Shown here: piece after piece, positions 1,721-60,115 of the stretch
Layout of the letters: every line of letters starts with the position of its first letter
Position numbering within the stretch: the stretch's first letter is position 1
Origin: Cyanidioschyzon merolae
Lineage: Eukaryota
Length of the DNA: 64,000 nucleotides
Reading direction: 5' to 3' (one strand)
Assembly (NCBI GenBank): GCA_000091205.1
Contig: AP006500.2
Notes under the pieces: model-generated
The model's input: the letters and a program-made list of their open reading frames with translations, nothing else
Databases searched by the model: none
What the model was told of the DNA's origin: nothing
Position numbers and translations under genes: made by a program

Positions 1721-1795
1721 TCTCCGTGGACGCTCCTGTAACCAAACCCGAACCCTGTGTCAGACGCGTCGGCACAGCGTCCTCTGGGCCGTCGC

Positions 1796-5117: not shown

Positions 5118-5246
5118 GATGGAGCCAGCAGACTGCGGCCTCGTACAAGCTTGTTCTGACGAGTGATCTTCGTCGACAGCGAGTGTGGGTTGTTCTTGTA
5201 CACGAGGACGTAGCAAAGGAGTGCCTGAAATAGCCGGCAAACACCT

Positions 5247-5263
5247 ACACACACACACACGAA
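5247..5263. repeat. (CA)n microsatellite.
   Basis: acacacacacacac run at ~5249-5262. Confidence 0.6.
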
Positions 5264-5321
5264 CGCAGGTAGCACGGTCCAACACAACAGCTCGCCGACG
5301 AGATTTTCGCGATGCCAGTAC

Positions 5322-10424: not shown

Positions 10425-10544
10425 ACGTTCGCCTGCCTAGTCAAGACCAATGCCAGAATAATATGGAACGCGTCCCCCATCTCGGGCGTTCACATGAACG
10501 ACTGGATCTGTTTCTAATGTCGTCAGCACCAGGCTTTGCGGCCA

Positions 10545-44403: not shown

Positions 44404-44879
44404 CGCATGCAAAAGCGCTCTCTTCTGAATCTGTTTGCTCCGTGAAACGAACCCACTTCCTCCAGGAGCGCGAGTGCAGCCCGTTTTACCGGACGCCGAG
44501 GTACGTGGTCCTCCACCGATACGTAGGTGTTCCGCCAGCCCTTGGTCTGTGGTGCCGACACCGCCCTATCGGCCCACGGAGAACAGGTGCTTCATGTATT
44601 CACTGGAACATGTTCGAGTTCCACGTCGCAGTCGTCGCGTGCACGGCCTCGGCAGTGCTGCTGCTGCTGCTGACGACATGTAGCGATGATGTTTCTATCA
44701 CCAGAACGTTTTGACGGATTCCGAATTGCCAAGGACACGACGGATATCGGCGACCGGGAACGCGTTAACCAGTTCGTAGGATACTTTTCGGTCCCGCGTG
44801 CAGCAGTCGTAGAAGGTAAGCGTGGAGCCCTGAGTTGCTTGCTCTGTTCCTGTCTTTCGATTCTTTCCGAATTTGGTTT

Positions 44880-45700
44880 AGAGATACGGGTTCGATAGTC
44901 ACAGCGCAGCAATTAGGGCTTACGGATTCATCTAGACTCTGCGGATTCTCTGTCGGGTTTCCAGAGGGGCTTTTCCGACGCTTTGCCACTGGCGTTCTTG
45001 ACTTTACTAGAGTCGAGATGATTCGTGGCAATTGCGAACACGGGTTCGTATCGTAAAAGGTACCAATGTCCGATGCATGCGTACAAGCCTGGACTCTTCG
45101 CAGTACCGTACGTGTCGCGTGTTCAAAGCATGCATTCGTCGAGTATTCGATGTTTGCGTTGCAAGGGAACTCGTGGGTACTGCAACACGCGCCCCCAGAT
45201 GTCCAACGTAAAGACTCGACATCGTCCATTGACGAATTGATCACAAGCTCGTTCCAGAAACTGCAAGAACTTGTCAAATGAACGATTTCACTCGAAAGAA
45301 AAAATTTTCTTCTCTTTAATGTCATCAATGATGCGGCATTTTTTGCTGCAATTGGGTAATTTGTACGGGATGAGTCGCTGGATTTTCCCGTCTCTTCTGT
45401 TTGCATGGAAAATTGTCAAGAATTTGGAATTCATCCACCACAACAAGCGCATCTTGGAGAGCGTGCGTCAGCGCTTCGCACGAAAGGAGCGTGGAAACAT
45501 CGATATTTCTCGATTCGATCCCCAGCCTGGATCTCGTTTCCGATACTCGTTTCATCACGTACAACACCGCGCTCTGGGAATCCTTGATCACGTGAAACAA
45601 CCTGCGCTCGCAAGTGATGCGGACAGCCTACCCGCCCTGGAGATCGCCTCTCACAAGGCCGTGATCCTTCGGTACGGCACCGCGCACAGCAACGGAAGAG
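44880..45700 (+). repeat. Element A: a diverged (~65-70%) paralogue of 58450-59250, lying on an AT-rich island.
   Basis: Collinear shared blocks include gacgaattgatcacaagctcgt, tcgagatgattcgtggc/tcgaaatgaatcgcggc, ttgcatggaaa and cgcttcgcacgaaaggagcgtggaaacatcgatatt. Confidence 0.65.
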
Positions 45701-46361
45701 TGCGTCGAAGAGCACCCTCTGTAGCTGTCAAACACCTGCGCAACGCGATGAGGCGAACCTTCACGTACCACCGGGCGGTGCTCTGACGAAGAGGTATCCT
45801 AGCCATATGGGAACACCTGACCACTGTCAAGTGTCATCGATGCGAACATATACTGAGGCTGCATACAAACGAGATGAACTTAGAAGGCGACGTGTACATG
45901 ACGACTTTCATCCGTTCATCAGGTGCGTCATTAATAGCCAGCAGCGGCGTCATCGGGACTCGAATGCTGTCATCAACACGTTTCGACTTCGGACAGCAGC
46001 GCTGAACGGAAAGGAGTCAACTGCGAATATATATCGCTGAGGATAAGAGCAAGCAAATTTAAGCAGTCACAGAAAAAGCCTACAAAAACTTGTACATATG
46101 GCAGTAAGAAGAGACCCAAACGTTTGAGTGTACACCAGAGTTAGGAATCTCCTTCCGTTGTACGCGGAGCAGGGGATCTGTGCCCGCTTCGTGCAGCCGG
46201 CGATCCGACGACGCCCGTGGAGCGCCCCGCCGTCGCGCCCGCGCGTCGATCGCACGCGACAAGGCGCTGCGCTGGGGCGGCACCTGCGCTCAGCGACACC
46301 CGAATTCCAAGACTCGGAAATACTTCTGCTACTGCAACTGTTACTGCATCAGCGAGGTGCT

Positions 46362-47366
46362 ATGGGAGCTATGGAACGCACGCCGGGTGCATTCATCACA
46401 ACTTGGAGCAGCCGATTGAACGTCTCGGTTAGGAGCTTCCGAGGCGCACCAGCGGCGAATACACTCGATGTTCGCCGCGGCAACAGCGAGCGAGAGCGCT
46501 TCATTCTTGCGCAGCCGCCACTACGTCCAGCAAGACGTGTGCAACCTATCCGGGACTGGCGTGACCAACGCCCAGCAACCGTTAAAGAACAGCGCTCGCG
46601 GGCGCTCAGCACTGTCGCATCGCTTAGCGTCGGAGACGTCACACTTGAACACGTTGGCGCTGAAGGCACGACTTCCTATCGCGTTTATCTGCGAGTGGCA
46701 CGCGGCGACCGTCTTGAGCGCATCTCGCCGTGGCATGACCTGCCGCTATTCCCACGTGGCAACGCAGAAACGCTTCTTTTCGTAAATGAAATTCCGAAAG
46801 GCACCCGTGCTAAGATGGAAATCGCAAAAGATGAACCACAGAACCCAATTAAACAGGACACGAAAAAAGGCGCTCTGCGTTTCTACGAATACGGACCTTC
46901 GCTGATCAACTACGGTGCGCTACCGCAAACCTGGGAGGATCCTGCTGTCGTGCACACCGAGAGCGGATGCAGTGGCGACAATGACCCGCTGGATGTTATC
47001 GAGATTGGATCACAGGCCATGCCGACTGGGGCGGTGTACGAAGTGAAGCCTTTAGGGATGCTCGGCTTGATCGATAGCGGCGAATTAGACTGGAAGTTGA
47101 TCGCTATCCGTACGGAAGATCCGAAAGCCGCTCTCATTCAAGGTCTCTCCGATATGGAAGAGCACTTTCCTAACCTTCTTCACCAAGTTCGTGAGTGGTT
47201 CCGCCTCTACAAAACCGCAGAGGGTAAGGGCGAGAATACCTACGCGTACAATGGGAAGGCCCTAGACGTGTCGTTTGCGCTGCAGATCGTACGCGAGGCC
47301 CACGAGAACTGGCGCAAGCTGAAGAGTGGTGAACGCGCAAATACTGAGCAGCTCGCCCTGTCATAA
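46362..47366 (+). CDS. ppa: Soluble inorganic pyrophosphatase (family I) with an ~90-aa N-terminal presequence. Start is the first ATG; the ORF track starts at GTG 46128.
   Basis: LLFVNEIPKGTRAKMEI...KKGALRFY...NYGALPQTWEDP...DNDPLDVIEIG matches the family I PPase active site. Confidence 0.9.
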   Translation: MGAMERTPGAFITTWSSRLNVSVRSFRGAPAANTLDVRRGNSERERFILAQPPLRPARRVQPIRDWRDQRPATVKEQRSRALSTVASLSVGDVTLEHVGAEGTTSYRVYLRVARGDRLERISPWHDLPLFPRGNAETLLFVNEIPKGTRAKMEIAKDEPQNPIKQDTKKGALRFYEYGPSLINYGALPQTWEDPAVVHTESGCSGDNDPLDVIEIGSQAMPTGAVYEVKPLGMLGLIDSGELDWKLIAIRTEDPKAALIQGLSDMEEHFPNLLHQVREWFRLYKTAEGKGENTYAYNGKALDVSFALQIVREAHENWRKLKSGERANTEQLALS

Positions 47367-47589
47367 ACGCAGAAATCGAGGCGGATGCGAGCAGGGCATG
47401 CAATGCTTTTCTTGGTTGACGGGGTTCTGAGTGGGTTTCCTCCGATCACTGGCGTTCGCGCACCTATGCCGCACAAAAGCAAGCATCTTTTCGCCAACGA
47501 TGCCACGGTGCATCCGGTGCTGTTACAGAACCCGGGTGCCGGTAGACACTGTAGCTGCCTTCTGTGGCAACCCCTGATTCACAAAATCG

Positions 47590-48624
47590 TCAACGGTTCA
47601 GTGAGACGCTGCTGTCGACGGCTTTGTTGCGATCATTACCATCATCATTACCGTCGTCGTCGTCGTCGTTGGCTCGTGCACCGGGCAGCGTGTCGGGTGC
47701 AAAGCCACCTTGCTTGAGACTATATACAATTTTCTCCCGCTTGATCTGCTCCCGCACATCCTTTGGCAAACAGAAAAGCCCCGTAAACGATATGCCATCC
47801 AAAGTGCGCAGCGCTGCCTCCCCGAGACGTTCCGTAATCAGCCGCTCCACTGCCTCGACAGCAGCATCTCCGTGTACAACCAGCGGTTTATCGCTGGCGA
47901 CTGCAAAACCCTGCGGACTCCCGTAGGAAGGAATGAACGCCTGGAACGGATACACCGAAGCGAAGACGGCTTGCAACGTCTTCACGATGCGCGGATGCAT
48001 TGGTGACTCGTTGAGGCTTGTCGGACCCGCCTGGGTGACGAAAACGCCATCATGGTGCAGTCGGCCTTTCACCGCTAGGAAAAATTCTCGTGTAAACAGC
48101 GCCAGACTAGGACCGTGCTCCAGTGGATCCGTCAGATCGCTCAAAATCACGTCGTACTGGTCAGTGCTTTTCTGCACAAATGCCCAGGCGTCGGTTGCGT
48201 GCACCTTCACCCGCGGGTCATGAAGCGAGCCGTGATGAATCACGCTCAAGTGCTTCTTACATGCCTGGATGACCTGATCATCAATATCGACGATATCGAT
48301 TCGTTGAATCGTATCCCATTTGAGTAGCTCACGCGCTGCACCGCCATCGCCGCCTCCGAGAATGAGTACGTTTTTCGGGGAACCGTGCAGTAGACACGGC
48401 ACGTGACACAGCGGCTCATGGTAGAGCGCCTCGTCACCCGATGTACACTGCAGTTTACCGTCGAGAAAAAGAGCTTTCCCGTAGGTACCAATATCCGCTA
48501 TGACGAGGTCCTGGTAAGCGGTGGACTCGACGACGTCTACGCGGCGCACGCCGTGCTGGTACACGTCAAACGGCGTGATATACTCGGAGAACCACAGGTC
48601 CGCCTTGACTTGTGCACCTGGCAT
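47590..48624 (-). CDS. speE: Spermidine synthase (SpeE, bacterial-type) with an acidic C-terminal tail. Start is the first ATG; the ORF track extends to GTG 48678.
   Basis: The N-terminus WFSEY...LDG is collinear with SpeE. VLILGGGDGGAAREL is present. The aminopropyltransferase motifs IDIVDID and DLTDP are present. The C-terminal DDDDDGNDDGND is encoded partly by (GTC)n. Confidence 0.85.
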   Translation of the reverse strand: MPGAQVKADLWFSEYITPFDVYQHGVRRVDVVESTAYQDLVIADIGTYGKALFLDGKLQCTSGDEALYHEPLCHVPCLLHGSPKNVLILGGGDGGAARELLKWDTIQRIDIVDIDDQVIQACKKHLSVIHHGSLHDPRVKVHATDAWAFVQKSTDQYDVILSDLTDPLEHGPSLALFTREFFLAVKGRLHHDGVFVTQAGPTSLNESPMHPRIVKTLQAVFASVYPFQAFIPSYGSPQGFAVASDKPLVVHGDAAVEAVERLITERLGEAALRTLDGISFTGLFCLPKDVREQIKREKIVYSLKQGGFAPDTLPGARANDDDDDGNDDGNDRNKAVDSSVSLNR

Positions 48625-49017
48625 TTTCCGGTGGCAAATGCGCTGCGCACCTGTAGGCTCCGCTCCAGAGCGTTGCACCTTCGAACGAATGCCGTTGCGA
48701 GCTCGCGCACTGCAGCAGGAACTGGGCCCACAGGTCGCAGATGCCGTTTCAGTCCCGCTCGCGTCAGAGTGTCAAGCCTAAATTTATCTTGATGCTCTCT
48801 ATGAAAAGCCAGATCTATACAGATAAGGCGTACCTGTGCCCTATCCTGGCGTACTACCCCCGTGTTGAACGCAGCAGAGGCGTGCACTCGTGTCGATGCC
48901 CGCGAGTGCCAGCGGCGGGCGCCGGCGTCGTCGACCCGCTCTCGCAGATCGTTTCGCTGCACTGCGGTGTGGCGACACAGCGTGCAACACACCATGAGAA
49001 CATCATTATGAACACGA

Positions 49018-49632
49018 ACTTGAACAACACTTGTCACGAATTGGTGTGTGTATGTGTTCAGGATGCCAAAGCATCGATCGCACTGATGTATGAACACGAA
49101 CTTGAACATCACTTGTTACGAATTGGTGTGTGTGTGTGTTCAGGATGCCAAAGCATCGGTATGAACACGAACTTGAACAACACTTGTTACGAATTGGTGT
49201 GTGTGTGTGTTCAGGATGCCAAAGCATCGATCGCACTGATGTATGAACACGAACTTGAACATCACTTGTTACGAATTGGTGTGTGTGTGTGTTCAGGATG
49301 CCAAAGCATCGATCGCACTGATGTATGAACACGAACTTGAACATCACTTGTCACGAATTGGTGTGTGTGTGTGTTCAGGATGCCAAAGCATCGATCGCAC
49401 TGATGTATGAACACGAACTTGAACATCACTTGTCACGAATTGGTGTGTGTGTGTGTTCAAGATGCCAAAGCATCGGTATGAACACGAACTTGAACAACAC
49501 TTGTTACGAATTGGTGCGTGTGTGTGTTCAGGATGCCAAAGCATCGGTATGAACACGAACTTGAACAACACTTGTTACGAATTGGTGTGTGTGTGTATGT
49601 GTTCAGGATGCCAAAGCATCGATCGCACCGAT
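49018..49632. repeat. 70/82-bp minisatellite, ~8 copies, with a (GT)n core.
   Basis: The unit atgaacacgaacttgaacaacacttgttacgaattggtgtgtgtgtgtgttcaggatgccaaagcatcg occurs with or without atcgcactgatgt. The ORF-track 'peptides' here are repeat artefacts. Confidence 0.88.
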
Positions 49633-50704
49633 TACGAGGCGAAAATGATTTCAGGGCAAAGTCGCATCTTTTCGAGGTAACCCCGTATGCTGGATGCCCC
49701 ATTGTGCGACTGCACCTGTTCACAGCTCTATCGATCGTTCTCGTCTAGGCCTGTGCTGCTCCCGGCAGAGCAGCTGCTTCGCATGCCGCCATTTCGGGAC
49801 CTACAGCATACACCCAGCGAGCGATGGCTCTTCTGGGTGCAACACCTCCGAACGACGCTTGTAACGTTGGGATCGTGTATGCGCAGAATGCATCCCAGAT
49901 GCATAGATCGTGTTCGCCTTGTGTGGACCATTCGTCAAGCGCAGCGTCGTGTAGCCACACCACACCCCGATCAGGCGAGTGCGCATACCACCAAACCTCC
50001 GCAGCGCAACGCTGTGCGCACCAGAGACGTACACCGGGGAGACGAACGCGCGCCCTGCACTGTTGCAGCGACCCTAGTGCGCGGATATGGGGCTTTGCTC
50101 GGGCTCGCGCATCGACCGGAGCGCCCCGATGTGTCTGGATCATGCCCTTGACCAGGCACTAGACTGGGTCCTAGAGCAGGTACGCATTCTTTGTTTACAG
50201 GGGCCGACTCAAGTTACCCGCGGATGCGCGTGTCCAGACTGCAGCTGGCACTCTGAGGCTGCCCCAGTTCCACGGCAGACGTATCAAGTCCCAATGACAT
50301 GAGAGAAAAACGGGCGCACGCAGTGAACACCACCGAGATCGGTATCGCGGATATCCGATCGCCAGGCCAACAGCGGCTCTCTCTCGCTCTAAAGCGGCGA
50401 CAGAACGGCCTTGGGATGCCTTCACGGACGTCGACGTCAGGAGAGACGCTCCGTTTCAGCGTCCACAGCGGAGCGCGGCTGCGAGGCGGTATGGCTTGCG
50501 CGCGCCGTCGCCGCAAGGACGTTACGAATTTGATTTCCCCTTGAACTTGTAGTTCACGAGTAAGCACGGTATTCTCAGTGTTACTCGAACTGCTCTTGAG
50601 CGTGTAGTTGACTAGGAGGGCGTGAACCCTGACACTCATATTATTTCCATTTCAACGTTTACTTGATTCGAACGACGGCATCCATATCGTCCAAAAAATG
50701 GCCT

Positions 50705-52407
50705 ATGCTTCCACGGTGGCTAAAGAGGCTGCAAATCAAATGGAGGAACAAAGTCGCAGGTCGACCAACATCAAAACTTGGAGCGACAGCCGGCTCCAAA
50801 TGTCAGGTACAGCAACCCATGGCGCCTGCCGGCTGCTGTGTGGCAGTTCCGAGCACACCACGGTCGACGACGACGCGTCTTTCCACTGACGACTACTCTG
50901 TTTCCGAAGCGTCCAGCCAGTTTAAACCTCAGCTCCTGGAAGACTGGGTCATAGACTTGAGTGCTGAGCCTTTGCGTCTTTCGGGAGCAGCCGAGCATCC
51001 CTGCGGTGGCCTGTTCGAGAAGGGCCTCCATCGGTCGCTCGCTGTGGACGCGCTCTGGCAGCAAGCTGTCGAGTCTGACCGAACGCCAGCCCGAACATGC
51101 GCCCAGTACGATGCAGTGCGTTACCTGCCGGTAGATGGCACCACAGACGTGTTGCTTCCGCAGACACATGCACGGGACTGGGCATACGCCCCGCCCGCCG
51201 ACGCCAAGCAGCCTCGGTCGGCGTTACTGGCTCGGCGTCGATGGACAGAGGGTAACCTCATTGTCGGCAGGAGGCTGCAGCCCCTGGTTGGTGTCCAGGG
51301 TTCTGGTTCCGACGGGCGCTATGTGTTTCTGGCACCCGCCGTGTCCACAGAAATGCAGCAGCAGCAGCAGCAGCAGCAGCGTCCGTCACCTGCTGATGGC
51401 AATGCCGCTGCTCATCACTTGGTCGGCTCAGAGCGGATCCCGACCGAGATCCTGTCCGAGGACCCATTAGATCTGGTAGAGATGCTGGCGCTCGCGCTAG
51501 ACCGGCAACAAGTGGAAGCGAACTGTGGCCAGCAAGCTGAGCGAAGCGTACATGAAACCGGATACGAGACGTCGGACACCAGGCATCAGCACAGGCAGGC
51601 ATCGCTCCACGCGAGCGAAGCATCGCCGCATTCTTCGGATGGTACGCTGCACGATGCTGAGGCTGGTGCCGCTGCTTGTGCCCCAGTCGGCGATGCTTTC
51701 CGCATGGATAACATATCTACAGCGTTTGTCGCTGATAACGAGCAGGAGCTGCCCGTTGAATCCAGCGAACTCACACGTGCACCGCTATCACGCCGAGCGC
51801 TTGTTCGCACCGTCCGAAGCGTTGCCGAGTATATCCACGCCGTGCTGCTCCGTTGGACTAGCGATGATCACGCAGACGGTGGCGGTGGTCTCAGCGCTGC
51901 ACCCCGCGAGCTCGATGAACTCACCACGGCAGGTATCGTGGAACTGCTCGAGATCCTGCTCTGGAACGAGGGCGTCATCATCCTGAACGATACAGACGGT
52001 CTCACTGCAGCGGTTTACGGAGCCTCCGCGTTGGCAGACTTGGCACTCTGTGCACCGTACGAAACGCTCGTAGGAAGCGCCTCCGTCCTCGAATGCCTCC
52101 GCCAGACGATTGCCGCTCAGGAACGGTACCGCTTTGGTCGGCCGCCTTCGCCATTATCGCAGCTGCTGCTACGTGAAGCTTGGCGATGCCTTCGAAATAT
52201 CACTGGAAATACACGAGTCGCTAATCGACTTGTCTTTTTAGCGCAAGATGCAGAAAGAAACAAGGAACCGTCGCTCATCGAACTCGCGCTGCTCCTGAGT
52301 GACAATGCGGCGATACCGGCTGCGATCGCCGTCGAGGCCTGGGCCTGTATACGCAACTGGTGCGCTGCTGCCGTGGAGCCCGTGGATCCCTCTCAACCGA
52401 GCAGTTC

Positions 52408-52442
<35 letters not shown>

Positions 52443-53656
52443 ATGTCCCTCGTCGCCAGCCGATGACATCGAACCCGTGGGCCTGTTTCATGCTCTTGGA
52501 GAAAAGCGAACACGGTGCGACCTTGTGGCGTCTGGCCACCCGACACGCTGCCCTTCTCGAGACAAGTACCAGCGACGATGCATGCTTCCAGCATCGTCAA
52601 GCACTGGAGCAGCTCTGGGCACTGATTTCGGTGATGCTCACCACGCTCAATGAGCATCAATGGAAATATCTCGACGGCATCGGACTCCTCGAGGCCGTGG
52701 AGCATGTCCTGCAAATGCCTTGGCAGTTTGAGCGGGATCCGTTCTCCATCGAAAGCGCTGTACCAGCAGACTCGCTCCTCGATACCAACGCACGGACGGT
52801 ACCGTTACTCGTACGCCAGTACGCGCTTCGTTGCGTGCGGCTCCTAACTGAGCGCGAAACAGGGCTCCGCACCTGGTTGCAGTACACGCGCAAGTGGAGC
52901 ATCATCAGGCCCAGTGAGAGCGTCCCGCTTTTGGCAATAATCGTCAAGCACTTGACTTGCACGCAGATGAGTGAGCGTCCCGCCTATTATGCGCTTGCGA
53001 TCCAAGCGGGAGAGGTGCTCACGACCCTGTGCCGCTACGGCTCCGTTCGTGGCGACCTCCTCCAGACGCCAGGCCTAGTACACGGGCTCGTGGGTCAGTT
53101 AGCAGCCCAGTCACTGGACCTGCTGGCGCAAAATCCTCAACAGGCAGCCGCTGTACCAGCCGTCGGTGCTGAGCGCACCCCAGCCGCAACGCACGCGCTT
53201 CCCAGGAACCAAAGCTGGGTCCAGGATAGAGTGTACCAACCCGAAGCCTTCCAACAGCAGTTGATGCTGGTCTGCCTCCAGGCCCTTACGGACCTCGCAG
53301 CACTGCCGCAGGCGTCACCAGCGATTCTCAGTGCGTTGGAACACTACGGTGGCCTTCGGTTCCTGCTCGACTCGTGTCAAGTGCTGGGGTTGCACCCAGC
53401 GATTCGTTCCAGCGTCCGAAACCTGTTGCTTGCGCTGCGATCCCTGCTCACGGAAAGCAACACGACACGAAGCCCTGACGTCTTTGATATAGAGAGCGTT
53501 ATCCAGGACATTTCTCGAACGGCGACTTTCTTGTGCGGTTTCAGTAGTCGTACGCGTCTCGCGCTGGAGCTCTTCGCCGTCCAACAGCGACTCAGCAAGG
53601 CGAGTCTAAGCCGCTCTGTATCCAGCAGTGCCTTGTTGCTGCAGCGACGCACTTGA
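50705..53656 (+). CDS. Large hypothetical protein (~980 aa), probably alpha-helical, with poly-Gln and poly-Thr tracts. The start is uncertain; the ORF track starts at TTG 50663.
   Basis: Single 3-kb ORF. (CAG)9 at ~51355-51381 and (ACG)10 at ~52410-52441 are in frame. No family recognised. Confidence 0.5.
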
Positions 53657-54806
53657 GTGTGTGCTGCGACCGAGGACCCGCGGAAGCGTCGTGCTCCAGG
53701 GTGCCGCATCCTGTGAGGTCTCTCCGACTGCAGCTTCAGCGCGGGAGAGTACATGCGTTGCGTATCGTGCGACTCGGGGGGCAGCGCTGGAGTGCGGACA
53801 GCACGCTCCTCAAAATCAGCAGCAGCAGCAGCAGCAGCAGAAACGCTGGTGCCTGCTAGTTCAGCCTAGAGCTGCTGCTTGGAACGAGTCACTGGGCACC
53901 AAGGTGGCACTTGACGAGGGGGGCGGGTCTTCTGTGGCGACGTCTCGCCCGTTCCTGTCGACGTACTTGGAGCCTGTCTCCAGCGCGACTGGTATATCGG
54001 TAAGCCCAGGGTTTCCCGAGTCACCGACGGTGTACTCAGAGACGCACGCTGGTTTCAGTCGCTTGCGGAAATGAGGCCAAAGCGCACGCTAGTGATGCCT
54101 CCCCGTTATCGAGCATGGCGGGCCTTGTCACTCAAACGCCTCATAAGCAGCGGTTTCCGTGTTCATCCGGGGCGCAACTAGCTCTCTTGCAGCTGCTTTT
54201 GAGCGAAATCTGTATACTTTAAAGTGAATGCCGTTCTTGTGGACGCCTTGGATGAGCCATGCTGTCAGGAGCGGGCATTCGTCTACCCCAAGGTCTAGTG
54301 CATCTCTGGTCGACAGCGAAACGCTGAGCGGAAATCGTTTCCGATGGCGCTCGGCTCATGACAAAAGCTACTCAGTATGAAAGGTCGGTGCAGTCGGTCT
54401 GCGATCAAATGGCTATGGGCAGGGAACCGAGCCTACGCACGGAAAGTATGCGTTGTGCGGTATCGACAGAGAGGCGCAACGGTTCGCGAATACACTTTTC
54501 AGGCGCCGCAATGAGAGACGTACCACTCAATGGGGCTTCGCATCGAGCTGTATTTCCGGGCAAGCGTTCCTGTTCTGCTGCAGCGTTGCCTGATGGGCTG
54601 GTCTTCCATAAATCCCGGGCCTTGAACAGGTCCCTGGATCCACGGCAGCAGCAGGGGAACAAGATAGCGTCTGAACGCTGAAACAACCAGCGAATGGCGC
54701 TCCCAGGCGCATCCTGTGCGGATGCATCGACTCGACATTGTAGAGACGCGTCAGAAATTCCATATCATGATGCATCTGTACGGCCACTACCAGAAAACTG
54801 CATCGT

Positions 54807-57800
54807 TCATAGCCGCTTCGAGCGAGATCCCGTGGCACCGCCAGCGTCCAAGGAAAACAGTAAGAGCAGGTCCGCCAGTCGACTCGATTGATTCTCTGTA
54901 CCAGAACTGCCGAGTGCATCCTCTACCATGCTCCGTTTCTTGTCCTGAAGCAAGAGCATACGCTCCTCGACAGAGTCTCGAACGATGTAACGCCGAATCT
55001 GTACAGTACGAGTCTGTCCCATTCGATGAACCCGATCCATGGCCTGCTCTTCTACATAAGGATTCCACCAGGGATCCACCAAAAAGACGGAGGAGGCGGC
55101 GGTGAGGTTCAAACCAACGCCTCCCGCACGAAGCGAAGCTAAGAGCACGTTCATCCGTCCAGTGGCGGTTGCGGCCGAGGTAGACGGATTCATCGTGGCA
55201 AACGCCTCGAGTACCGCTGTTCGTCGGCTCTGGGAGAGCGTGCCATCAAGACGCCCCACTTGAAACAGCGTTCGAGCGTGCTCGTGATTCCATGCTTGCA
55301 GCGCTCGTTCAATCAGGTCCAGCATACCGGTCCACTGGGAGAACACCACACATTTGCCGTGCCGAACAGGATCGCGCTCGAACGCCTGCACTGCTTCGAC
55401 GAGATCATTGACGAGTCTCGCGAGCTTGGTGCTGAGGAAGAAACCCCTCTCCAGGTCGACGCGAAAGCGAGACCGACGCGGCGTACTCATCACATCGGCA
55501 AAAGAGCAGCCTTTCCGACACACGGGACATTGGGCGTTCCCGTGTCGATTGCTCAGCAGCAACGTCAAGATGCAGTCTCGACAGAAGACATGCGCGCAGT
55601 TCCGTAAAGCCACTGCGTCATCGATGCTCTCCAAACAGATCGGACACAAGGGTTTGGTGTTCGTACTGGACTCGATGGAGCGCTCATCGTGCAGACTCTG
55701 CTGCAACTGGCCCGCCAACGTTTCCAGGTACGTGGTCGCCTGGTCTGATCCTCGGCCTTCCGTCAAGCGTTGCATAAACTTCTGCACATCCTGGAGAATA
55801 TGCAGGTCGCGTGCCGGGCAGGACATGATCAGGAGCGGATGATCGCAGAGCTGTCGAATGCGCATCAACATTTCAAATACCGTCGTCAAGTAAAAGGTGA
55901 TCTGATTGTCTGCCAAAAACGTGGAAAAGCGCGCTCGACTTGCCTTGTAAACGGCATCATAGAGCTGTCGTTCGGCAGCAGATAGGTCTACGTATACGAC
56001 CTCCGTCTGCTTGGCGGGTAGCTCCAGAATCGGTGCACCAGTGTGCTCGTCCAGTGTGCGCTTCGTTCGACGTAGCATCAGCGGTTGAAGAATCGATGAC
56101 AAAAGCGAGAGCGCTGCCTGCATCTTTGCCGCTTGACCTGACTCGAAGGGACGCGCTATGTACCGTTTCCAAAGCGAGGCATCTGACCAGGGTTCCACCG
56201 CCAGAAACCGCAACAGCGGATAGATGTCTTCGAGATTGTTCTGCAACGGGGTTCCCGTCAGAGCCCAGCGGTAACGGCTTCTCAGGTCGAGCACGGCACG
56301 AGAGCAGCCACTGCTGGGATTCTTGATGACATGCGCCTCGTCCAGGATCAGTCGATGCCAGCGAAGTGCGTACAAACCGCGCGCCTCCGCGGATTCAGTT
56401 TGTTGGGTGCTTTTCCAGGTCGAATACAGGGTACCGTAGGTGGTAATCACCACCTGAAAACGCGCCAAGACCAAGGGATCCGTCTCGCGATCATTCGCGT
56501 AGTAGATATGGACAATGAAATCGGCATCATCGGCGACATGAGTGTTGAGTTCAGCGCACCACTGACTGAGAATCGACATGGGGCAGACAATCAGCGTACC
56601 GCCACAGCAGCTGTCGACGAGCGACCGTCTGGTTTGAGCTGCGGCTGCGGCATTGGCAGCTCGACGTCCACCAGCCTTCGTATCGGACTCGTTTTCGCGG
56701 TGCGACTCGGTGGTGACGCGCTCGGGATGCTTCGTGAACAGCGCTGCCTGTCGGTCGAGTCGTGTCTGCTCCTGGGGAGGTCGTGGGTTTGCCAACATTA
56801 ACGAAATCGCTTCGACGGTTTTCCCGAGTCCCATTTCGTCCGCTAGGATGCCTCCGGCTACCGCCGGCGACGTCATCGGCGGCTGCAGCGATACCCGGCC
56901 CGATACTCGATGCTGGAAGTAGCGCGTTCCATCGGGGAGACGCTGCTCCCGCCAGGTTTGTTGGGTATCGTCGCTACTTGGAGTATGACTTGGAGCTCGT
57001 TCGCGAGCAACCATCCAGTTCAGGGCACTCTGTTGGTACGGACGCAGCGTCGACGCCAACAGTGGCGGCACCGGCACCGGTGGTGCATCAACATGGACGT
57101 TTTCGGCAGCGGCTAGGATCCACTGGACGGCGTCCTCGGGGCGGAAGGCCTCAGTGCGTAGGCACTTGGTTACCGAAGCGGAGCCCCGCTCTCCGGGTGC
57201 TTCGATTCGCGCCTTGGTATGGGTAATGGTATCCGAACTCAGAGCCGTTGTTTCGTTGGTGTCCGTCCCTGAACCGGTTAGGGAGTGGAAGAGCTGTGCA
57301 ATCCAGTGCGTGAGTGCATCCTCCTGGTCCGCGTCGAAGCCTGCAGGTCGCCGACCGCTACGCTCCCCGGGTGCAGCGAAGGAAAACATAGACTTGGCAG
57401 CAAATATGGCAACCTCGGCAATAAACACACAGGCGAATCGAATGTGCAGCGGGCAGTCCACCGCTCGAGCTCGCGCTATAATCAGATTGGCGCTCTGCAA
57501 AGCACCGAGGCAAGTTGGTAGATCGAGCGCTTCCAGCGGCTCAAGACGCCCAAACTCGCGGCCGTGCTCAGCGGTGCACACCCGCACTGCGAAGCGCAGT
57601 CGCTGACGCTGCCGGTTGCGGTTGTGACGACCCAGACTTCCCGTTCCGTTGGACATAATTGGGCTCACCTTGAGCACCAGCTCCGCGCCACTCGTCACCG
57701 CCATGGGCTCAAGCGTGGCAGTGGCGCGAACCGGGACTAGAATACTGCCGAGGTACTTGGGCCAGCGCGTCGTGCCTCCTCCGTGCTCTGCTCGCAGCGC

Positions 57801-58187
57801 CACCAGTTGTTTCTGGATCCAGGGTTCCAACGAGTCCATATCCTCCACCGGGTCTTGAGGCGACGCACACGAGGATGCTGGTTCGCTTTCTGGCGTCGGC
57901 GAGTCAAACACTTCACGGCCAACTGCAGGTGTCCGTCTGCTGGAGCCCACGCCGTCGGAGAGGCGTCCGGTTTTCGCTTCCCATGACGTTGCTGACGGCG
58001 AGTAGGCACGCTCTGCAGCGTGCTGCTGCCTGCTCTTGGCCCCCGTCTCGTGAGATGCCTGGGAGTTGGGGCGACGCTGCGCTTCGCCGCCTCTGTACCG
58101 TTTCCTGGCACTGCTCGCTGCACCTACTTGGCTCTGAAACGGAGTGGAAGCATGCCTGTTCCCTATTTGTGTTTGCATGCGGTCCAT
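54807..58187 (-). CDS. SNF2-family DNA helicase/translocase with a HIRAN-like N-terminus and an embedded C3HC4 RING (Rad5/HLTF/Rad16 subfamily).
   Basis: ATG start. Helicase motifs include ILADEMGLGKT and LILDEAHVIKN. The RING CPICLES...CAHVFCRDC...CPVCR lies between the helicase lobes. Motif VI is QAMDRVHRMGQTRTV. An N-terminal HIRAN-like segment is present. Confidence 0.85.
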   Translation of the reverse strand: MDRMQTQIGNRHASTPFQSQVGAASSARKRYRGGEAQRRPNSQASHETGAKSRQQHAAERAYSPSATSWEAKTGRLSDGVGSSRRTPAVGREVFDSPTPESEPASSCASPQDPVEDMDSLEPWIQKQLVALRAEHGGGTTRWPKYLGSILVPVRATATLEPMAVTSGAELVLKVSPIMSNGTGSLGRHNRNRQRQRLRFAVRVCTAEHGREFGRLEPLEALDLPTCLGALQSANLIIARARAVDCPLHIRFACVFIAEVAIFAAKSMFSFAAPGERSGRRPAGFDADQEDALTHWIAQLFHSLTGSGTDTNETTALSSDTITHTKARIEAPGERGSASVTKCLRTEAFRPEDAVQWILAAAENVHVDAPPVPVPPLLASTLRPYQQSALNWMVARERAPSHTPSSDDTQQTWREQRLPDGTRYFQHRVSGRVSLQPPMTSPAVAGGILADEMGLGKTVEAISLMLANPRPPQEQTRLDRQAALFTKHPERVTTESHRENESDTKAGGRRAANAAAAAQTRRSLVDSCCGGTLIVCPMSILSQWCAELNTHVADDADFIVHIYYANDRETDPLVLARFQVVITTYGTLYSTWKSTQQTESAEARGLYALRWHRLILDEAHVIKNPSSGCSRAVLDLRSRYRWALTGTPLQNNLEDIYPLLRFLAVEPWSDASLWKRYIARPFESGQAAKMQAALSLLSSILQPLMLRRTKRTLDEHTGAPILELPAKQTEVVYVDLSAAERQLYDAVYKASRARFSTFLADNQITFYLTTVFEMLMRIRQLCDHPLLIMSCPARDLHILQDVQKFMQRLTEGRGSDQATTYLETLAGQLQQSLHDERSIESSTNTKPLCPICLESIDDAVALRNCAHVFCRDCILTLLLSNRHGNAQCPVCRKGCSFADVMSTPRRSRFRVDLERGFFLSTKLARLVNDLVEAVQAFERDPVRHGKCVVFSQWTGMLDLIERALQAWNHEHARTLFQVGRLDGTLSQSRRTAVLEAFATMNPSTSAATATGRMNVLLASLRAGGVGLNLTAASSVFLVDPWWNPYVEEQAMDRVHRMGQTRTVQIRRYIVRDSVEERMLLLQDKKRSMVEDALGSSGTENQSSRLADLLLLFSLDAGGATGSRSKRL

Positions 58188-58449
58188 GCACCGCGTCTAC
58201 AACAGATCCAATACCGCGTCCTCCTTATACAGACGACCTGAACAGCGTCGTATGCCCGGAAAGGCTTCAGTTTCGGGTTCGGCTCGGCTCGGCTCGGCTC
58301 GGGCCAGTCCTGAAGGCAACGCGTTGTCAAAGCGGAGCGGGAACACGCGCGCTACCTGCACGACGCCCGAGTTCGATGAAAATGGAAGCGTGAATAATAT
58401 GTTCTGCTTCTTGCTTTCGAACTGTTTTCAGATCTGATTTTCGGATCCA

Positions 58450-59250
58450 AAAAGTTCTAGACGCGAATTTTAGCAATACGGATTCACGGATTCATGCGTC
58501 GGTTTCGGATGCTTTGCTGAGTTTGCAGTCTGGCTTGCTTGAGGCTTTGCCGCCGATACTCATGATGTCATGGGTATCGAAATGAATCGCGGCTCGCTCG
58601 AGCGAGGGATCTTAACATACACGATATCCTTATCCAATGGATGTGTACAAGCATCCGCAACGCTCCTTTCCTTAGGTGTAGCATTGCTCAAATAACGAAT
58701 TCTTTCGAGGTTTCGATCTTACTGCTTCAAGGCATCTCGTGGGCCCCGTGTGTCGCGCCCCTTGATAGACGTTGAAGTTTTTACAACTTGGGCCTGAACG
58801 ACTTGATCACAAGCTCGTACAGAACGCTCACTGAACAGGTACGGTCAGGGAATCGATTCCGATCGAAAGATAAATCGTTTTCTCTTTGTGGCTGCCGAAG
58901 AACAGCGCACTCGACAGCAGCTCGATACCTCGGACGGGATATGCTGCCAGATGCCTCCATCTCTATTGCTTGCATGGGAAAGCGTCTTGGACATGGACGT
59001 CAGTCATTGCAGCGATCGTTTCCCGTCGGATATACGTCACCGCTTCCAAGCAAGAAAGCGTAGACGGATCGAAATACGTCGATCTGTTCTCCAGCTTCGA
59101 TTTTCGTTCCGGCACTTGTTCCATCATAGACAGGATCCAGTTCCACAGATCCTCTGTCTCATGGAAGAGCGTGCACTGCCATGTACAGAGGAGGAATTAC
59201 TCGCCTGAACCATCGCCCAGAGCAAGCGAGAGATCCCAGGAGATGTTACC
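58450..59250 (+). repeat. Element B: a diverged paralogue of element A (44880-45700), also on an AT-rich island.
   Basis: Same shared blocks as element A, in the same order and orientation. The small ORFs 58888..59208 and 45271..45786 align in frame (SLLxAW...RF.ARK..I.I.R...RF..F.HH). Confidence 0.65.
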
Positions 59251-60115
59251 GGGTGCGGCTGCCGAGGCAAGGAGCGAGTGGAGCCTTCTGTTCCAGTCAA
59301 GGGCGTGCACCGAGCGCTGACGCAAACGTTCATGCTCCCTGTGGCGATACTCGACGGGCAAGGAAGAAGTGTACAAGACGTATGAGGACACCTCACCACC
59401 GCCAATGGCACCGCTGCAAAGAGCGCAGCGATGTTGTCTACGTAAGTGATGGAAATGGCAAGCGAAGCGGCGTTCGCAACGACCGCTTTTGCTTGAAGTG
59501 CATCGACAGCAGCCGGAAGCAACGAATTCGGTGCTTGCAAACTGCCATCAACATGCTGCGTCTGCTCAAAAAGATGCTGGCGGACAGGAGAGACCGGCCT
59601 GTTCAAAGCCGGAGATAAGAAAAGGGCAAAAAGGTCGCAGAACAAGCACTCCCTGGCTGGTGGTGAACTCAGACCCAAACTTTAGAGTGTAACTTCCCAC
59701 ACGGTCCCGTTCTTTCGCCTGCTGACACAGTTGTAACACGCACGCATCCAGGCATCGTTTCAACTACCGATGAGTACGGCGATGACGACAAGAGCAGTTG
59801 TTCGGGTACCTGATTCGCTTCCTTGCAGAATCCACGTTTCTAACCAGACGATTCCAGACCCCAGGTCACTCTACAGAGCCAGAGTACCAACGTAATTGTT
59901 TCCTCGGCTCTCGTGAACGTATCCTCATATTGCCGAGACGTCCATCTCGTCGGGGTACGAGCTCCCAGCACCTGTGTTTCTCTTGTTTCGCTGGTACGGC
60001 GGCGTCGGCAGCCACGGCGTTTCGCTTCGCGCACACGTGGCCTCTTCCTGCGTTTGGCAACGAACGAAGAGGGCAACGATTGCCTTCTAGTTTCGCATTG
60101 TTTCTTGGTGCCTTG

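What the first reader, a model, noticed from the sequence alone, without database searches (positions are those of the whole stretch)
44880..59250. Pair of diverged ~0.8-kb AT-rich paralogous elements, each in a divergent intergenic region and both in the same orientation
Element A (44880-45700, between cytidine deaminase(-) and pyrophosphatase(+)) and element B (58450-59250, between the Rad5-like helicase(-) and ERH(+)) share collinear blocks at roughly 65-70% identity over ~800 bp. Both are markedly more AT-rich than their surroundings. Each carries a small ORF on the + strand, and the two ORFs align in frame over ~70 codons with ~35% identity and no indels. That level is about what 65-70% nucleotide identity would give by chance, so I do not treat it as evidence of coding. 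They could be old transposon relics, a family of noncoding RNA or regulatory modules, or a small paralogous gene family. The shared context is the notable part: both sit upstream of a plus-strand gene and opposite a minus-strand gene.
Basis: seen in the sequence. Interest (0 to 1): 0.55.

Follow-up and report, generated by a model that had tools for sequence, protein, structure and literature searches.

The report
Decayed Fanzor transposon copies, red alga
The two look-alike stretches are dead, mutated copies of a jumping gene that once carried a Fanzor (TnpB-like, RNA-guided nuclease) gene; at least seven copies litter this 64-kb piece of a hot-spring red-alga genome, which is ordinary junk DNA, although nearby copies have recombined and flipped a block of genes.

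Summary
The similarity is real: 60% identity over 774 bp and 188 bits, against at most 27 bits for shuffles. But it is neither a pair nor 0.8 kb. A (44806-46175) and B (58369-59730) belong to a ~1.37-kb dispersed family with seven copies in the window (four full, three partial), plus more on metagenome contigs. Old copies are equidistant (54-57%) and diverged without codon periodicity. Their majority consensus restores a ~360-codon ORF. Its C-terminus hits Pfam PF07282 (TnpB/Cas12f TNB), scores 29.9 bits against a Fanzor1 profile (shuffles at most 9.3), and aligns to intact 692-833-aa Fanzor1-like proteins (hhalign 99.7%, E 6e-26). One intact relative (P0356) always follows a DDE_3 transposase in a 3.5-kb mobile element on contigs I judge giant-virus-like. 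The host is a cyanidiophycean red alga, and orthologous loci in relatives lack the elements. The family is distinct from the published C. merolae Fanzor1 family CMe-1A. Copies F1, C and D share about 99.3-100% identical cores beside diverged ends, indicating gene conversion, and the inverted F1/C pair brackets an inverted gene block. No evidence supports a present coding or RNA function. Verdict: transposon relics, a new member of a known kind.

The parts
44806..46175 (+). Copy A, full length (about 1,370 bp), old and decayed. It lies between cytidine deaminase (43822-44412, -) and inorganic pyrophosphatase (ORF 46128-47366, +).
   Evidence: nhmmer family profile E = 0. Termini mapped against the C-type ends. 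74% identical to the family consensus.
45395..46130 (+). Fanzor1-derived segment of copy A: fossil of the C-terminal ~207 codons plus the C-terminal tail, broken by stops and at least one frameshift. It contains 'EHLTTVKCHRC' and 'HRDSNAVINT'.
   Evidence: Translations, projected alignment and hhalign to the intact protein. Copy A alone scores 11.9 bits against the Fanzor1 profile, versus 7.9 for the best shuffle. Coordinates are approximate.
45271..45786 (+).
   Evidence: A 155-aa version (P0123) appears in metagenome protein collections. No frame-specific conservation.
58369..59730 (+). Copy B, full length (about 1,362 bp), old and decayed. It lies between the SNF2/RING Rad5-like helicase (54807-58187, -) and ERH (ORF 59798-60433, +).
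   Evidence: nhmmer E = 0. Termini. 72% identical to the consensus.
58960..59692 (+). Fanzor1-derived segment of copy B. Its C-terminal tail still reads '...QERPACSKPEIRKGQKGRRTSTPWLVVNSDPNFRV*', by eye comparable with the intact '...EERPQYLCPQPVKK...FEDPPL*'.
   Evidence: The tail comparison is by eye only. Coordinates are approximate.
58888..59208 (+).
   Evidence: 83 codons, 35% identity to the A ORF, no gaps.
5319..6695 (-). Copy C, full length (1,377 bp), 'C-type'. It lies between ORF 3816-5327 (-) and MCM7 (+), and forms the right boundary of the inverted block.
   Evidence: nhmmer E = 1.8e-124. 99.7% identical to D over 5444-6695. 100% identical to F1 over 5322-5569.
10446..11793 (-). 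Copy D, full length. Head and core (10542-11793) equal C, but the 3' tail (10446-10541) is an independent diverged lineage. It is inserted in the spacer between MCM7 and the next gene, which is only 95 bp in the relative.
   Evidence: (tail 72% identical to C's tail).
1..251 (+). Copy F1, only the 3' 251 bp inside the window. The complete copy is at L015:936-2320. Core and tail equal C, but the first ~140 nt are diverged. It forms the left boundary of the inverted block.
24503..25045 (-). Copy E, partial (3' ~40% of the unit), old. It lies in the divergent spacer between the GFO/IDH/MocA oxidoreductase (22897-24087, -) and ORF 25522-27969 (+).
   Evidence: nhmmer E = 7e-30, model positions 865-1327. 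Alignment.
36265..36470 (+). Copy G, partial (3' ~200 bp), old. It lies upstream of the methyltransferase ORF 36736-38343 (+).
   Evidence: nhmmer E = 4e-12, model positions 1178-1328. Alignment.
252..5318 (.). Gene block (mRNA triphosphatase, Rpb5, ORF X) bracketed by the inverted identical copies F1 and C, and inverted relative to the gene order of the closest sequenced relative.
   Evidence: blastn synteny against L009, gene calls and Pfam.

Best explanation
A and B are two members of a dispersed ~1.37-kb repeat family: fossil copies of a DNA transposon that carried a Fanzor1 (eukaryotic TnpB-like, RuvC-type RNA-guided nuclease) gene.

Shown:
- The family has at least 7 copies in 64 kb.
- Old copies are equidistant, i.e. 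a star phylogeny.
- They diverged without a detectable coding signature and are all broken.
- Their consensus restores an ORF whose last ~207 codons are homologous to the C-terminal RuvC/zinc-ribbon part of intact 692-833-aa Fanzor1-like proteins.
- The host is a cyanidiophycean red alga.
- The one orthologous region examined, in two related species (the locus holding F1, C and D), is element-free.
- The neighbouring copies F1, C and D have mosaic, near-identical cores, and F1/C bracket an inversion.

Inferred:
- One amplification burst of an already shortened, non-autonomous derivative. The unit holds at most about half of a Fanzor1 gene, and its 5' ~600 bp match nothing.
- That derivative was moved in trans by a transposase such as the DDE_3 (Tc1/mariner-IS630 type) enzyme that accompanies its intact relative P0356.
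- Insertion or retention favoured promoter-containing spacers, followed by largely neutral decay (about 0.2-0.27 substitutions per site from the consensus).
- Later ectopic gene conversion and non-allelic homologous recombination among nearby copies homogenised F1, C and D and inverted the block between F1 and C.

The copies most likely have no present function.
For: Family and significance.

Star phylogeny: A, B, C and H are 54-57% identical pairwise.

No coding signature in the divergence: all six frames score alike, there is no 3-periodicity, and stops occur in every frame.

The consensus restores the ORF.

Homology to TnpB/Fanzor:
- Pfam PF07282: E = 5e-6, 27.0 bits, above the gathering score of 26.3.
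- NCBIfam NF040570 guided_TnpB is the top hit at profile positions 337-388 of 389.
- phrog_506 'transposase' is the top hit.
- Fanzor1 C-terminal profile built from Bao & Jurka sequences: 29.9 bits, against shuffles of at most 9.3.
- Intact relatives found by exhaustive HMMER.
- BLASTP against P0183: E = 1e-28, 38% identity.
- hhalign: 99.7%, E = 6e-26.
- DNA-level hits to the intact genes: E = 9e-16 and 2.7e-13.

The intact relative P0356 occurs in at least 8 contexts, always after a 317-aa DDE_3 gene, in a 3,477-bp unit with defined ends.

Host and orthologous empty sites.

Mosaic identity and inversion.

A Fanzor1 family is already documented in C. merolae (PMC3627910).
Against: - Only the 3' ~45% of the unit is demonstrably Fanzor-derived. 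The first ~155 codons and the 5' ~600 bp match nothing in the intact protein or transposon, so the deletion-derivative model is inferred rather than shown.
- Terminus homology to the intact element is collinear but not above shuffles.
- TIRs are weak, and no target-site duplication could be established.
- Copies A and B have fewer in-frame stops than a neutral simulation predicts (3 vs 9.3, P = 0.011; 4 vs 8.8, P = 0.058).
- Indels are rare: 12-17 events per about 560-610 mismatches. Purely neutral decay therefore does not fit perfectly.
- No intact copy was found on a contig attributable to this alga.
- The RuvC-I aspartate could not be placed.
- Absence from related species was checked only at the MCM7 locus; the orthologous sites of A and B were not examined.
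Confidence: 0.85

Rival explanations
1. Exapted elements. The relics are retained because they now act as regulatory DNA (bidirectional promoter or insulator modules) or as templates for a non-coding, omegaRNA-like transcript in gene-dense divergent spacers.
For: - Enrichment in divergent spacers: 5 of 8 occupied against 1 of 14 others, p = 0.011.
- Full-length preservation with few indels in a compact genome, and a deficit of in-frame stops in A and B.
- Partial copies keep the 3' end, where Fanzor omegaRNAs are encoded (the omegaRNA position rests on my own knowledge of the Fanzor literature).
Against: - Orthologous genes at the one locus examined in two related species lack the elements and have short spacers.
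- No conserved secondary structure or covariation in the 3' region: -0.83 kcal/mol.
- No Rfam family.
- Conservation is uniform along the unit with no constrained block.
- Copies are equidistant, as expected for neutral decay.
Confidence: 0.08
2. A small paralogous protein-coding gene family. The + strand ORFs (45271-45786 and 58888-59208) encode real, fast-evolving small proteins.
For: The ORFs align in frame over 83 codons at 35% identity without gaps. Gene callers report such fragments as hypothetical proteins in metagenomes.
Against: - All six frames give the same 28-31% identity.
- Mismatches show no codon periodicity.
- The homologous region in C/D and H is interrupted at different places.
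- The ORF ends differ between copies.
- The frame is explained as a fossil of Fanzor1.
Confidence: 0.02
3. The near-identical C-type copies (F1, C, D) reflect recent transposition of a still-mobile non-autonomous subfamily rather than gene conversion.
For: Three copies with 99.7-100% identical cores lie within 12 kb. All three are absent from related species. An intact, evidently mobile relative exists in the same kind of environment.
Against: - Identity tracts are mosaic. F1 shares core and tail with C but has a diverged head. D shares head and core with C but has a diverged tail.
- The diverged head and tail are as far from C as unrelated old copies are: 0.58 and 0.72, against a range of 0.58-0.77.
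- Fresh insertions would be identical end to end.
- All three lie close together, which favours ectopic conversion.
Confidence: 0.15
4. C and D are the long terminal repeats of a retrotransposon, and A and B are solo LTRs.
For: C and D are direct repeats, 99.7% identical over 1,252 bp, flanking 3.8 kb.
Against: - The internal segment is the host MCM7 gene, with all MCM domains.
- MCM7 is syntenic in relatives without the repeats.
- The repeats carry a Fanzor-derived ORF fossil.
- There are no TG...CA ends.
Confidence: 0.01

Closest known systems
Fanzor1 (eukaryotic TnpB-like RNA-guided nuclease) genes carried by DNA transposons, as defined by Bao & Jurka 2013 (PMC3627910)
   Same: - The reconstructed ORF has the C-terminal signature [TS][TS]-x-x-C4 zinc ribbon ... 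RD.NAA.NI and a PF07282 hit.
- It matches a Fanzor1 profile.
- It matches intact 692-833-aa proteins that carry 'IETDGVGVS' and 'GLDPGR'; that these two motifs are Fanzor1 hallmarks was judged by eye against CMe-1, not tested.
- The intact relative P0356 rides with a DDE_3 (Tc1/mariner-type) transposase, an association the paper describes for Fanzor1.
   Different: - The window copies are dead.
- The unit is only ~1.37 kb and holds at most the C-terminal ~45% of a Fanzor1 gene.
- The 5' ~600 bp are of unknown origin.
- RuvC-I and RuvC-II residues could not be placed.
CMe-1A / TE-N2_CMe of Cyanidioschyzon merolae (Fanzor1 family; 3,169 bp, ~150 copies ~80% identical to consensus, no TIRs, TSD undetermined; PMC3627910)
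   Same: - Same host lineage (Cyanidiophyceae) and same superfamily.
- A similar state: an old family about 75-80% identical to its consensus, with unclear termini.
- A TE-N2_CMe-like element is present in this alga directly upstream of copy F1.
   Different: - No DNA similarity to the CMe-1A consensus.
- Only 23% identity over the C-terminal 155 aa to the CMe-1 protein.
- The unit is 1.37 kb against 3.17 kb.
- No copy here retains an intact ORF, whereas some CMe-1A copies do according to the paper.
TnpB of IS200/IS605 and IS607 insertion sequences (prokaryotic; NCBIfam NF040570)
   Same: The C-terminal TNB/RuvC-III module is the top NCBIfam and PHROGs match, at the collinear end of the profile. 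The fossil ORF length (about 360-390 codons) resembles that of TnpB.
   Different: - Scores are far below family cut-offs (17 bits against 100).
- The Fanzor1 profile fits much better than a Fanzor2/IS607-type profile: 29.9 against -1.7 bits, although the Fanzor2 profile was built from only two sequences.
- The closest intact relatives are 692-833 aa and are metagenomic proteins on contigs I judge giant-virus-like.
Repeat-mediated inversion and gene conversion between dispersed transposon copies (non-allelic homologous recombination)
   Same: Inverted, 100% identical copies F1 and C sit exactly at the two ends of a block that is inverted relative to the relative's gene order. Neighbouring copies show mosaic identity tracts.
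   Different: The direction and timing of the inversion are inferred from one outgroup only. The left breakpoint lies at the window edge and is seen in full only on metagenome contig L015.

Membership tests
TnpB/Fanzor superfamily | C-terminal zinc-ribbon TNB domain (Pfam PF07282, formerly OrfB_Zn_ribbon) | tested here: met
   The consensus C-terminus scores E = 5e-6 and 27.0 bits, above the gathering score of 26.3. Single copies in raw frames give no hit. The consensus was built without reference to TnpB.
TnpB/Fanzor superfamily | [TS][TS]-x-x-C4 zinc finger followed by the RuvC-III motif RD.NAA.NI | tested here: met
   The consensus reads 'HLTTVKCHRC...CPCMKC...HRDSNAAINIL'. Copy C keeps 'HRDANAAINV' and copy A keeps 'EHLTTVKCHRC' and 'HRDSNAVINT'. 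The regex of Bao & Jurka matches.
TnpB/Fanzor superfamily | RuvC-I aspartate 125-275 residues upstream, and RuvC-II glutamate | tested here: inconclusive
   The regex is satisfied by several Asp residues, so the match is trivial. Profile alignments to Fanzor1 and to the intact relatives stop at consensus residue ~154 or ~216. By eye, 'SLDD' may correspond to 'GLDPG', but this is not supported statistically.
TnpB/Fanzor superfamily | Intact ORF capable of encoding a nuclease | tested here: not met
   Every window copy has stops in all frames and at least one frameshift. There is no codon periodicity.
TnpB/Fanzor superfamily | Structured guide RNA (omegaRNA) encoded at the 3' end of the gene and element | tested here: inconclusive
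   RNAalifold on seven 3' ends gives -0.83 kcal/mol and no meaningful covariation. Rfam gives no hit. Decay may have erased any structure, and no transcript data are available.
Fanzor1 clade | Significant similarity to Fanzor1 proteins rather than to Fanzor2/IS607-type TnpB | tested here: met
   The Fanzor1 C-terminal profile scores 29.9 bits (24.7 without CMe-1), against 9.3 for the best shuffle. A two-sequence Fanzor2 profile scores -1.7. hhalign to intact 'IETDG/GLDPG' proteins gives 99.7%.
Fanzor1 clade | Long N-terminal half (REC/WED-like region); total length about 600-900 aa | tested here: not met
   The unit can encode at most ~390 codons. Its first ~155 codons match nothing in the 692- or 833-aa relatives or in any frame of the intact transposon.
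CMe-1A / TE-N2_CMe (C. merolae) | DNA similarity to the published 3,169-bp consensus | tested here: not met
   nhmmer of the family profile against CMe-1A gives no hit at E <= 10. CMe-1A against the window gives no hit. tblastn of CMe-1 against the window gives none.
Tc1/mariner-IS630 (DDE_3) non-autonomous derivative | Terminal inverted repeats shared with the autonomous element | tested here: inconclusive
   Family ends read 5' GTCAGA... and ...TCTGACGTGGGTGTA 3'. The intact ends read CTACAATCTTGTTATG... and ...AACATAGGTGTA. The 3' resemblance is collinear but scores -1.6, against up to 1.4 for shuffles.
Tc1/mariner-IS630 (DDE_3) non-autonomous derivative | TA target-site duplication | tested here: inconclusive
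   C and F1 end in ...GTA and ...CTA. The 5' junctions are not resolved because conversion tracts and decay blur them. No clean empty-site alignment was possible, since spacers are unalignable between species.
Tc1/mariner-IS630 (DDE_3) non-autonomous derivative | Remnant of, or association with, a DDE transposase | tested here: not met
   No similarity of any part of the unit to the DDE_3 gene region of the intact transposon. The association is seen only for the intact relative P0356.
LTR retrotransposon / solo LTR | Direct repeats flanking gag-pol | tested here: not met
   The segment between C and D is the host MCM7 gene, which is syntenic in relatives that lack the repeats.

The most novel reading that the evidence does not exclude
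The relics are not inert. After a Fanzor1-bearing transposon entered this red-alga lineage (its closest intact relatives sit on contigs I judge giant-virus-like), copies lodged in bidirectional promoter spacers have been retained and partly constrained. The signs are few indels, a deficit of stops, and 3'-end-biased fragments. In this reading they act as regulatory modules or as sources of an omegaRNA-like transcript, and they also serve as recombination substrates that flip gene blocks.
Probability: 0.07. Interest if true: 0.6.

Novelty: new member of a known kind. Interest (0 to 1): 0.33.

Why it matters
This explains an apparently odd pair of paralogous intergenic elements as ordinary transposon fossils, so they need no further attention as candidate genes or RNAs.

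Three modest points of wider interest follow:
1. It documents a second Fanzor1-derived repeat family in cyanidiophycean red algae, distinct from the published CMe-1A. At the local density of 7 copies in 64 kb, it could be a noticeable fraction of a very compact genome.
2. Its closest intact relatives are on metagenome contigs I judge giant-virus-like, and one of them (P0356) is a mobile DDE_3 + Fanzor1 transposon. This fits the old proposal that viruses spread Fanzor genes among eukaryotes.
3. The copies act as substrates for gene conversion and for an inversion in a lineage whose model species, C. merolae, is (from my own knowledge) used for efficient gene targeting by homologous recombination. 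That is relevant to assembly errors and to structural variation in these algae.

Tried and rejected
- Pfam on raw six-frame translations of single copies gave nothing relevant. Only the consensus worked.
- phmmer of the consensus and of intact P0183 against PDB sequences gave no useful hit.
- tblastn of the consensus against phage records gave one chance hit, E = 1.
Exact-pattern scans were judged useless for neutrally diverged copies and were not run.
- The word-indexed protein search with the projected alignment found only two fragments. The exhaustive HMMER search was needed to reach the intact relatives.
- The projected alignment A3 was not accepted by the exhaustive search. An alignment that included the short C-terminal ORFs was misaligned and discarded.
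- The first N-terminal profile test was flawed by duplicate record names and was redone.
- LTR-retrotransposon reading of C and D: rejected.
- Identity with CMe-1A: rejected.
- Conserved RNA structure at the 3' end: none. Rfam: only a tRNA elsewhere in the window.
- Homology of the 5' ~600 bp to the DDE_3 gene, to the Fanzor N-terminus or to any frame of the intact transposon: none.
- Terminus homology to the intact transposon: not significant.
- Contig ends at the edge of B were first suspected to mark a repeat boundary. They coincide better with a (CGGCT)n microsatellite, and B is not a high-identity repeat.

Full report
**1. Observation**

The two regions are truly similar. With sensitive blastn they align collinearly on the + strand over about 1.3 kb at 59% identity (E = 2e-72).

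The elements are moderately AT-richer than their surroundings: 49.4% and 51.3% GC against 57.0% for the window. The two small + strand ORFs align in frame over 83 codons at 35% identity without gaps.

Identity is about 58-60%. The unit is about 1.37 kb (A 44806-46175, B 58369-59730). And it is not a pair.

**2. A family, not a pair**

A DNA profile of A+B finds five more copies in the window:
- C, 6695->5319 (-), full length.
- D, 11793->10446 (-), full length.
- E, 25045->24503 (-), the 3' ~40% only.
- F1, 1-251 (+), cut by the window start.
- G, 36265-36470 (+), the 3' ~200 bp only.

A further diverged copy, H, lies on a metagenome contig between Gar1 and an MRS2-like gene (L005:1492-2915). 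A, B, C and H are all 54-57% identical to one another, which is a star phylogeny. Each is 72-81% identical to the majority consensus.

**3. Not coding now, but descended from a gene**

Translated comparison gives the same 28-31% identity in all six frames. Mismatches between copies show no period-3 pattern. Every copy has stops in every frame.

However, the majority-rule consensus of the diverged copies restores a single frame of about 360-385 codons with only 2-3 stops. That is the classic behaviour of decayed copies of a once-coding transposon.

Its C-terminus reads 'VDVWEHLTTVKCHRCE...RNYCPCMKCVNNSRKRRHRDSNAAINILRLL'. This consensus was built with no reference to any protein family. It then matched:
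- Pfam PF07282 (Cas12f1-like TNB, the former OrfB_Zn_ribbon of TnpB) at E = 5e-6 and 27.0 bits, just above the curated threshold of 26.3.
- NCBIfam NF040570 'RNA-guided endonuclease TnpB' as top hit, at the very end of the profile (337-388 of 389).
- phrog_506 'transposase' as top hit.

**4. Host and literature**

The MCM7 encoded between C and D is 70% identical to that of Cyanidium caldarium and 54-55% to Galdieria. Unnamed relatives reach 89% (NCBI assembly GCA_041825655.1) and 92%. The window therefore comes from a cyanidiophycean red alga of the Cyanidioschyzon/Cyanidiococcus kind, consistent with its intron-poor, gene-dense, 57% GC sequence.

Bao & Jurka (2013, PMC3627910) defined Fanzor1 and Fanzor2 as eukaryotic TnpB homologues. 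They reported one Fanzor1 family in C. merolae, CMe-1A: 3,169 bp, about 150 copies, about 80% identical to the consensus, a 734-aa protein, no TIRs and TSD undetermined. Its 5' 635 bp also occur as a separate element, TE-N2_CMe.

Using their published sequences:
- The reconstructed protein matches CMe-1 only weakly, though collinearly: 23% over 155 aa, E = 0.004 for the single comparison.
- The DNA profile of this family does not hit CMe-1A at all, and CMe-1A does not hit the window.

This is therefore a different family.

A Fanzor1 C-terminal profile built from eight published Fanzor1 sequences scores the reconstructed protein at 29.9 bits (24.7 without CMe-1). The best of 2,000 shuffles scored 9.3 or less. 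Copies A and C individually also exceed all shuffles. A two-sequence Fanzor2 profile scores the reconstruction at -1.7.

**5. Intact relatives**

I ran an exhaustive HMMER search of 1.84 billion representatives with a profile of exact ORF translations (A, B, P0001, P0002). It found 184 cluster representatives at E <= 1e-3.

Nearly all are 60-280-aa fragments, which means many more decayed copies exist. The ten clusters I checked come only from metagenomes and carry no informative names.

A few are intact:
- P0183/P0349 (551 or 692 aa) and P0240/P0354 (387 or 833 aa) carry 'IETDGVGVS' and 'GLDPGR', which I read by eye as Fanzor1 hallmarks and the RuvC-I site, plus a zinc ribbon and 'NRDFNAAINIL'.
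- P0183 against the reconstructed ancestor gives BLASTP E = 1e-28 at 38% identity, with one ~50-aa insertion in the intact protein's zinc ribbon.
- Profile-profile comparison gives 99.7% probability and E = 6e-26, aligning consensus residues 154-360 to residues 263-505 at 42% identity.
- The DNA profile also detects the intact genes: E = 9e-16 on L013, and 2.7e-13 plus a collinear 0.02 hit on the P0356 element.

By eye, the conserved block 'AGACCCAAAC.TTAGAGTGTA' near the 3' end of A and B corresponds to the stop-codon region of the intact gene ('AGACCCAACACTAGAGAGAA'). In that reading the fossil ORF originally ran about 35 codons further than the consensus stop. B still reads '...QERPACSKPEIRKGQ...DPNFRV*'. 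This correspondence was not tested statistically.

**6. What the unit is**

Only the 3' ~45% of the 1.37-kb unit is demonstrably Fanzor-derived. The first ~155 codons and the 5' ~600 bp match neither the N-terminal half of the intact proteins nor any frame of the intact transposon, including its transposase gene. The RuvC-I aspartate could not be placed. The amplified unit was thus at best a shortened derivative that could not encode a full Fanzor1.

The intact family comprises 13 clusters of 682-863 aa, all metagenomic. One member, P0356 (765 aa), occurs in at least 8 different contexts and always lies directly downstream of a 317-aa DDE_3 (PF13358, Tc1/mariner-IS630 type) transposase gene. 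Seven independent insertions define a 3,477-bp element with ends CTACAATCTTGTTATG... and ...AACATAGGTGTA.

The contigs that carry these intact genes are gene-dense. They encode ankyrin-repeat proteins, a DNA polymerase A fragment, ATG8, a UvrD helicase, an RNA ligase and a protein of more than 2,600 aa with a Peptidase_S74 domain. I read that as giant-virus-like, but I did not test it with marker genes.

The window family's ends (5' GTCAGA..., 3' ...TCTGACGTGGGTGTA) resemble a weak inverted repeat. The 3' end aligns collinearly with the intact element's terminus, but not above shuffled controls. A TA duplication could not be established. That the family is a non-autonomous derivative of such a mariner-type Fanzor1 transposon, mobilised in trans, is therefore my inference and is not shown.

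**7. Age and position**

The 22-kb orthologous region of the 89% relative and the 8.6-kb region of the 92% relative contain no copy. MCM7 and the next gene are 95 and 69 bp apart there, against 1.4 kb holding D in the window.

Intergenic DNA is not alignable between these species, whereas copies are only about 20-27% diverged from their consensus. The burst therefore probably postdates the species split.

Within the window, copies occupy 5 of 8 divergent spacers but only 1 of 14 tandem or convergent spacers (Fisher p = 0.011). I assigned the spacer classes by hand from the ORF map.

In such a spacer, either orientation faces a co-oriented gene.

**8. Recombination among copies**

F1, C and D are nearly identical in their cores, but in a mosaic way:
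- C and D are 99.7% identical over exactly 1,252 bp (5444-6695 = 10542-11793), after which their 3' tails diverge.
- F1 and C are 100% identical over the last 248 bp seen in the window. In the metagenome strain that holds the complete F1 (L015), the core from element position ~140 to the end is 99.4% identical to C, while the first ~140 nt differ. L006/L007 carry this same F1-type head and 5' flank.
- The deviant tail of D and head of F1 are as distant from C (0.72 and 0.58) as unrelated old copies are from each other (0.58-0.77).

These are therefore old, independent insertions whose cores were overwritten by ectopic gene conversion or crossover. They are not fresh transpositions.

F1 (+) and C (-) form an inverted pair. 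The block between them (mRNA triphosphatase, Rpb5, ORF X; about 252-5318) is inverted relative to the relative's order X(+), Rpb5(+), triphosphatase(-), MCM7(+). Non-allelic homologous recombination between the inverted copies is the parsimonious cause.

Contigs L017 and L019 join D's core to F1's head and flank. This is either a second inversion isoform or an assembler switching paths inside the 1.1-kb identical core. Short-read contigs cannot decide.

**9. Tests for present function**

Rfam finds no family in any copy. RNAalifold on seven 3' ends finds no common structure (-0.83 kcal/mol). Conservation is even along the unit.

Two small anomalies remain:
- A and B have fewer new in-frame stops than a neutral simulation predicts (3 vs 9.3, P = 0.011; 4 vs 8.8, P = 0.058), whereas C fits (5 vs 4.9).
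- Indels are rare: 12-17 events per about 560-610 mismatches.

These could mean that part of the divergence arose while the ORF was still selected, before or during the burst. They could also reflect a low indel rate in this genome. They keep a small probability alive for constraint or exaptation.

**10. Verdict**

The finding is real, but it is explained. It is a family of decayed, probably non-autonomous Fanzor1-derived transposon copies in a cyanidiophycean red alga, distinct from the published CMe-1A family. Hence it is a new member of a known kind.

Its most interesting aspects are secondary: the inferred viral setting of its closest intact relatives (one of them a mobile DDE_3 + Fanzor1 transposon), and the role of the copies as substrates for gene conversion and an inversion.

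Noticed in passing
window 252-5318, bounded by F1 (1-251, +) and C (5319-6695, -): The gene block mRNA triphosphatase / Rpb5 / ORF X is inverted relative to the gene order in the closest sequenced relative (L009, NCBI GCA_041825655.1). The breakpoints coincide with two inverted, 100% identical element copies.
   Followed up: yes
L017:3432-5666 and L019:2858-5094 (metagenome contigs carrying the identical MCM7): Downstream of MCM7, the D copy continues at element position ~140 into F1's diverged head and F1's upstream flank instead of D's own flank. This is either a second inversion isoform (F1 x D) in the population or an assembly path switch inside the 1.1-kb identical core.
   Followed up: partly
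L006:81-657 and L007:13-587 (the flank just upstream of copy F1): A sequence similar to positions 62-644 of the published C. merolae CMe-1A consensus, i.e. its TE-N2_CMe module (nhmmer E = 3e-50), lies about 30 bp upstream of F1. No such element occurs inside the window.
   Followed up: partly
L026-L033 (e.g. L027:2-3478), L025, L013: An intact 3,477-bp transposon encoding a 317-aa DDE_3 transposase followed by a 765-aa Fanzor1-like protein is present in at least 8 different contexts. Related intact Fanzor1 genes lie on L025 and L013. The contigs are gene-dense and look giant-virus-like (ankyrin repeats, PolA, ATG8, UvrD, RNA ligase, a >2,600-aa Peptidase_S74 protein). Viral origin was not verified with marker genes.
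   Followed up: partly
window 49007-49632: A tandem array of an 82-bp unit (8 copies, 89% matches) containing a (GT)n core forms the most AT-rich spot of the window (43.6% GC). It lies in the divergent spacer between ORF 47590-48678 (-) and ORF 50663-53656 (+) and is unrelated to the Fanzor family.
   Followed up: no
window 40765-41206 and 18612-18890: Two further intergenic tandem arrays: 164 bp x 2.7 copies (94% matches) and 47 bp x 5.9 copies (96% matches). A shorter tandem duplication lies at about 31615-31797.
   Followed up: no
window 21907-21977 (-): tRNA-Gly (GCC), the only Rfam/ARAGORN hit in the window.
   Followed up: no
window ~58276-58303: A (CGGCT)n microsatellite lies just upstream of the Rad5-like helicase start. 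Three metagenome contigs carrying this helicase (L002-L004) end at about 58,300-58,318, within roughly 15 bp of it (ends inferred from gene offsets, not mapped), which probably explains the contig breaks near copy B.
   Followed up: no
copies A and B (44806-46175, 58369-59730): There are fewer new in-frame stop codons than a neutral simulation predicts (3 vs 9.3 and 4 vs 8.8), and the indel-to-substitution ratio is very low (about 1:35-1:50). This is not explained by simple neutral decay.
   Followed up: partly
window 6279-6947 (-) and 45271-45786 (+); metagenome proteins P0001, P0002, P0123: Gene callers annotate open fragments of these relics as hypothetical proteins. The exhaustive search returned 184 cluster representatives, nearly all of them such short fragments. 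They could be mistaken for a small-protein family.
   Followed up: partly
This is probably coincidence. The two proteins were not compared.
   Followed up: no
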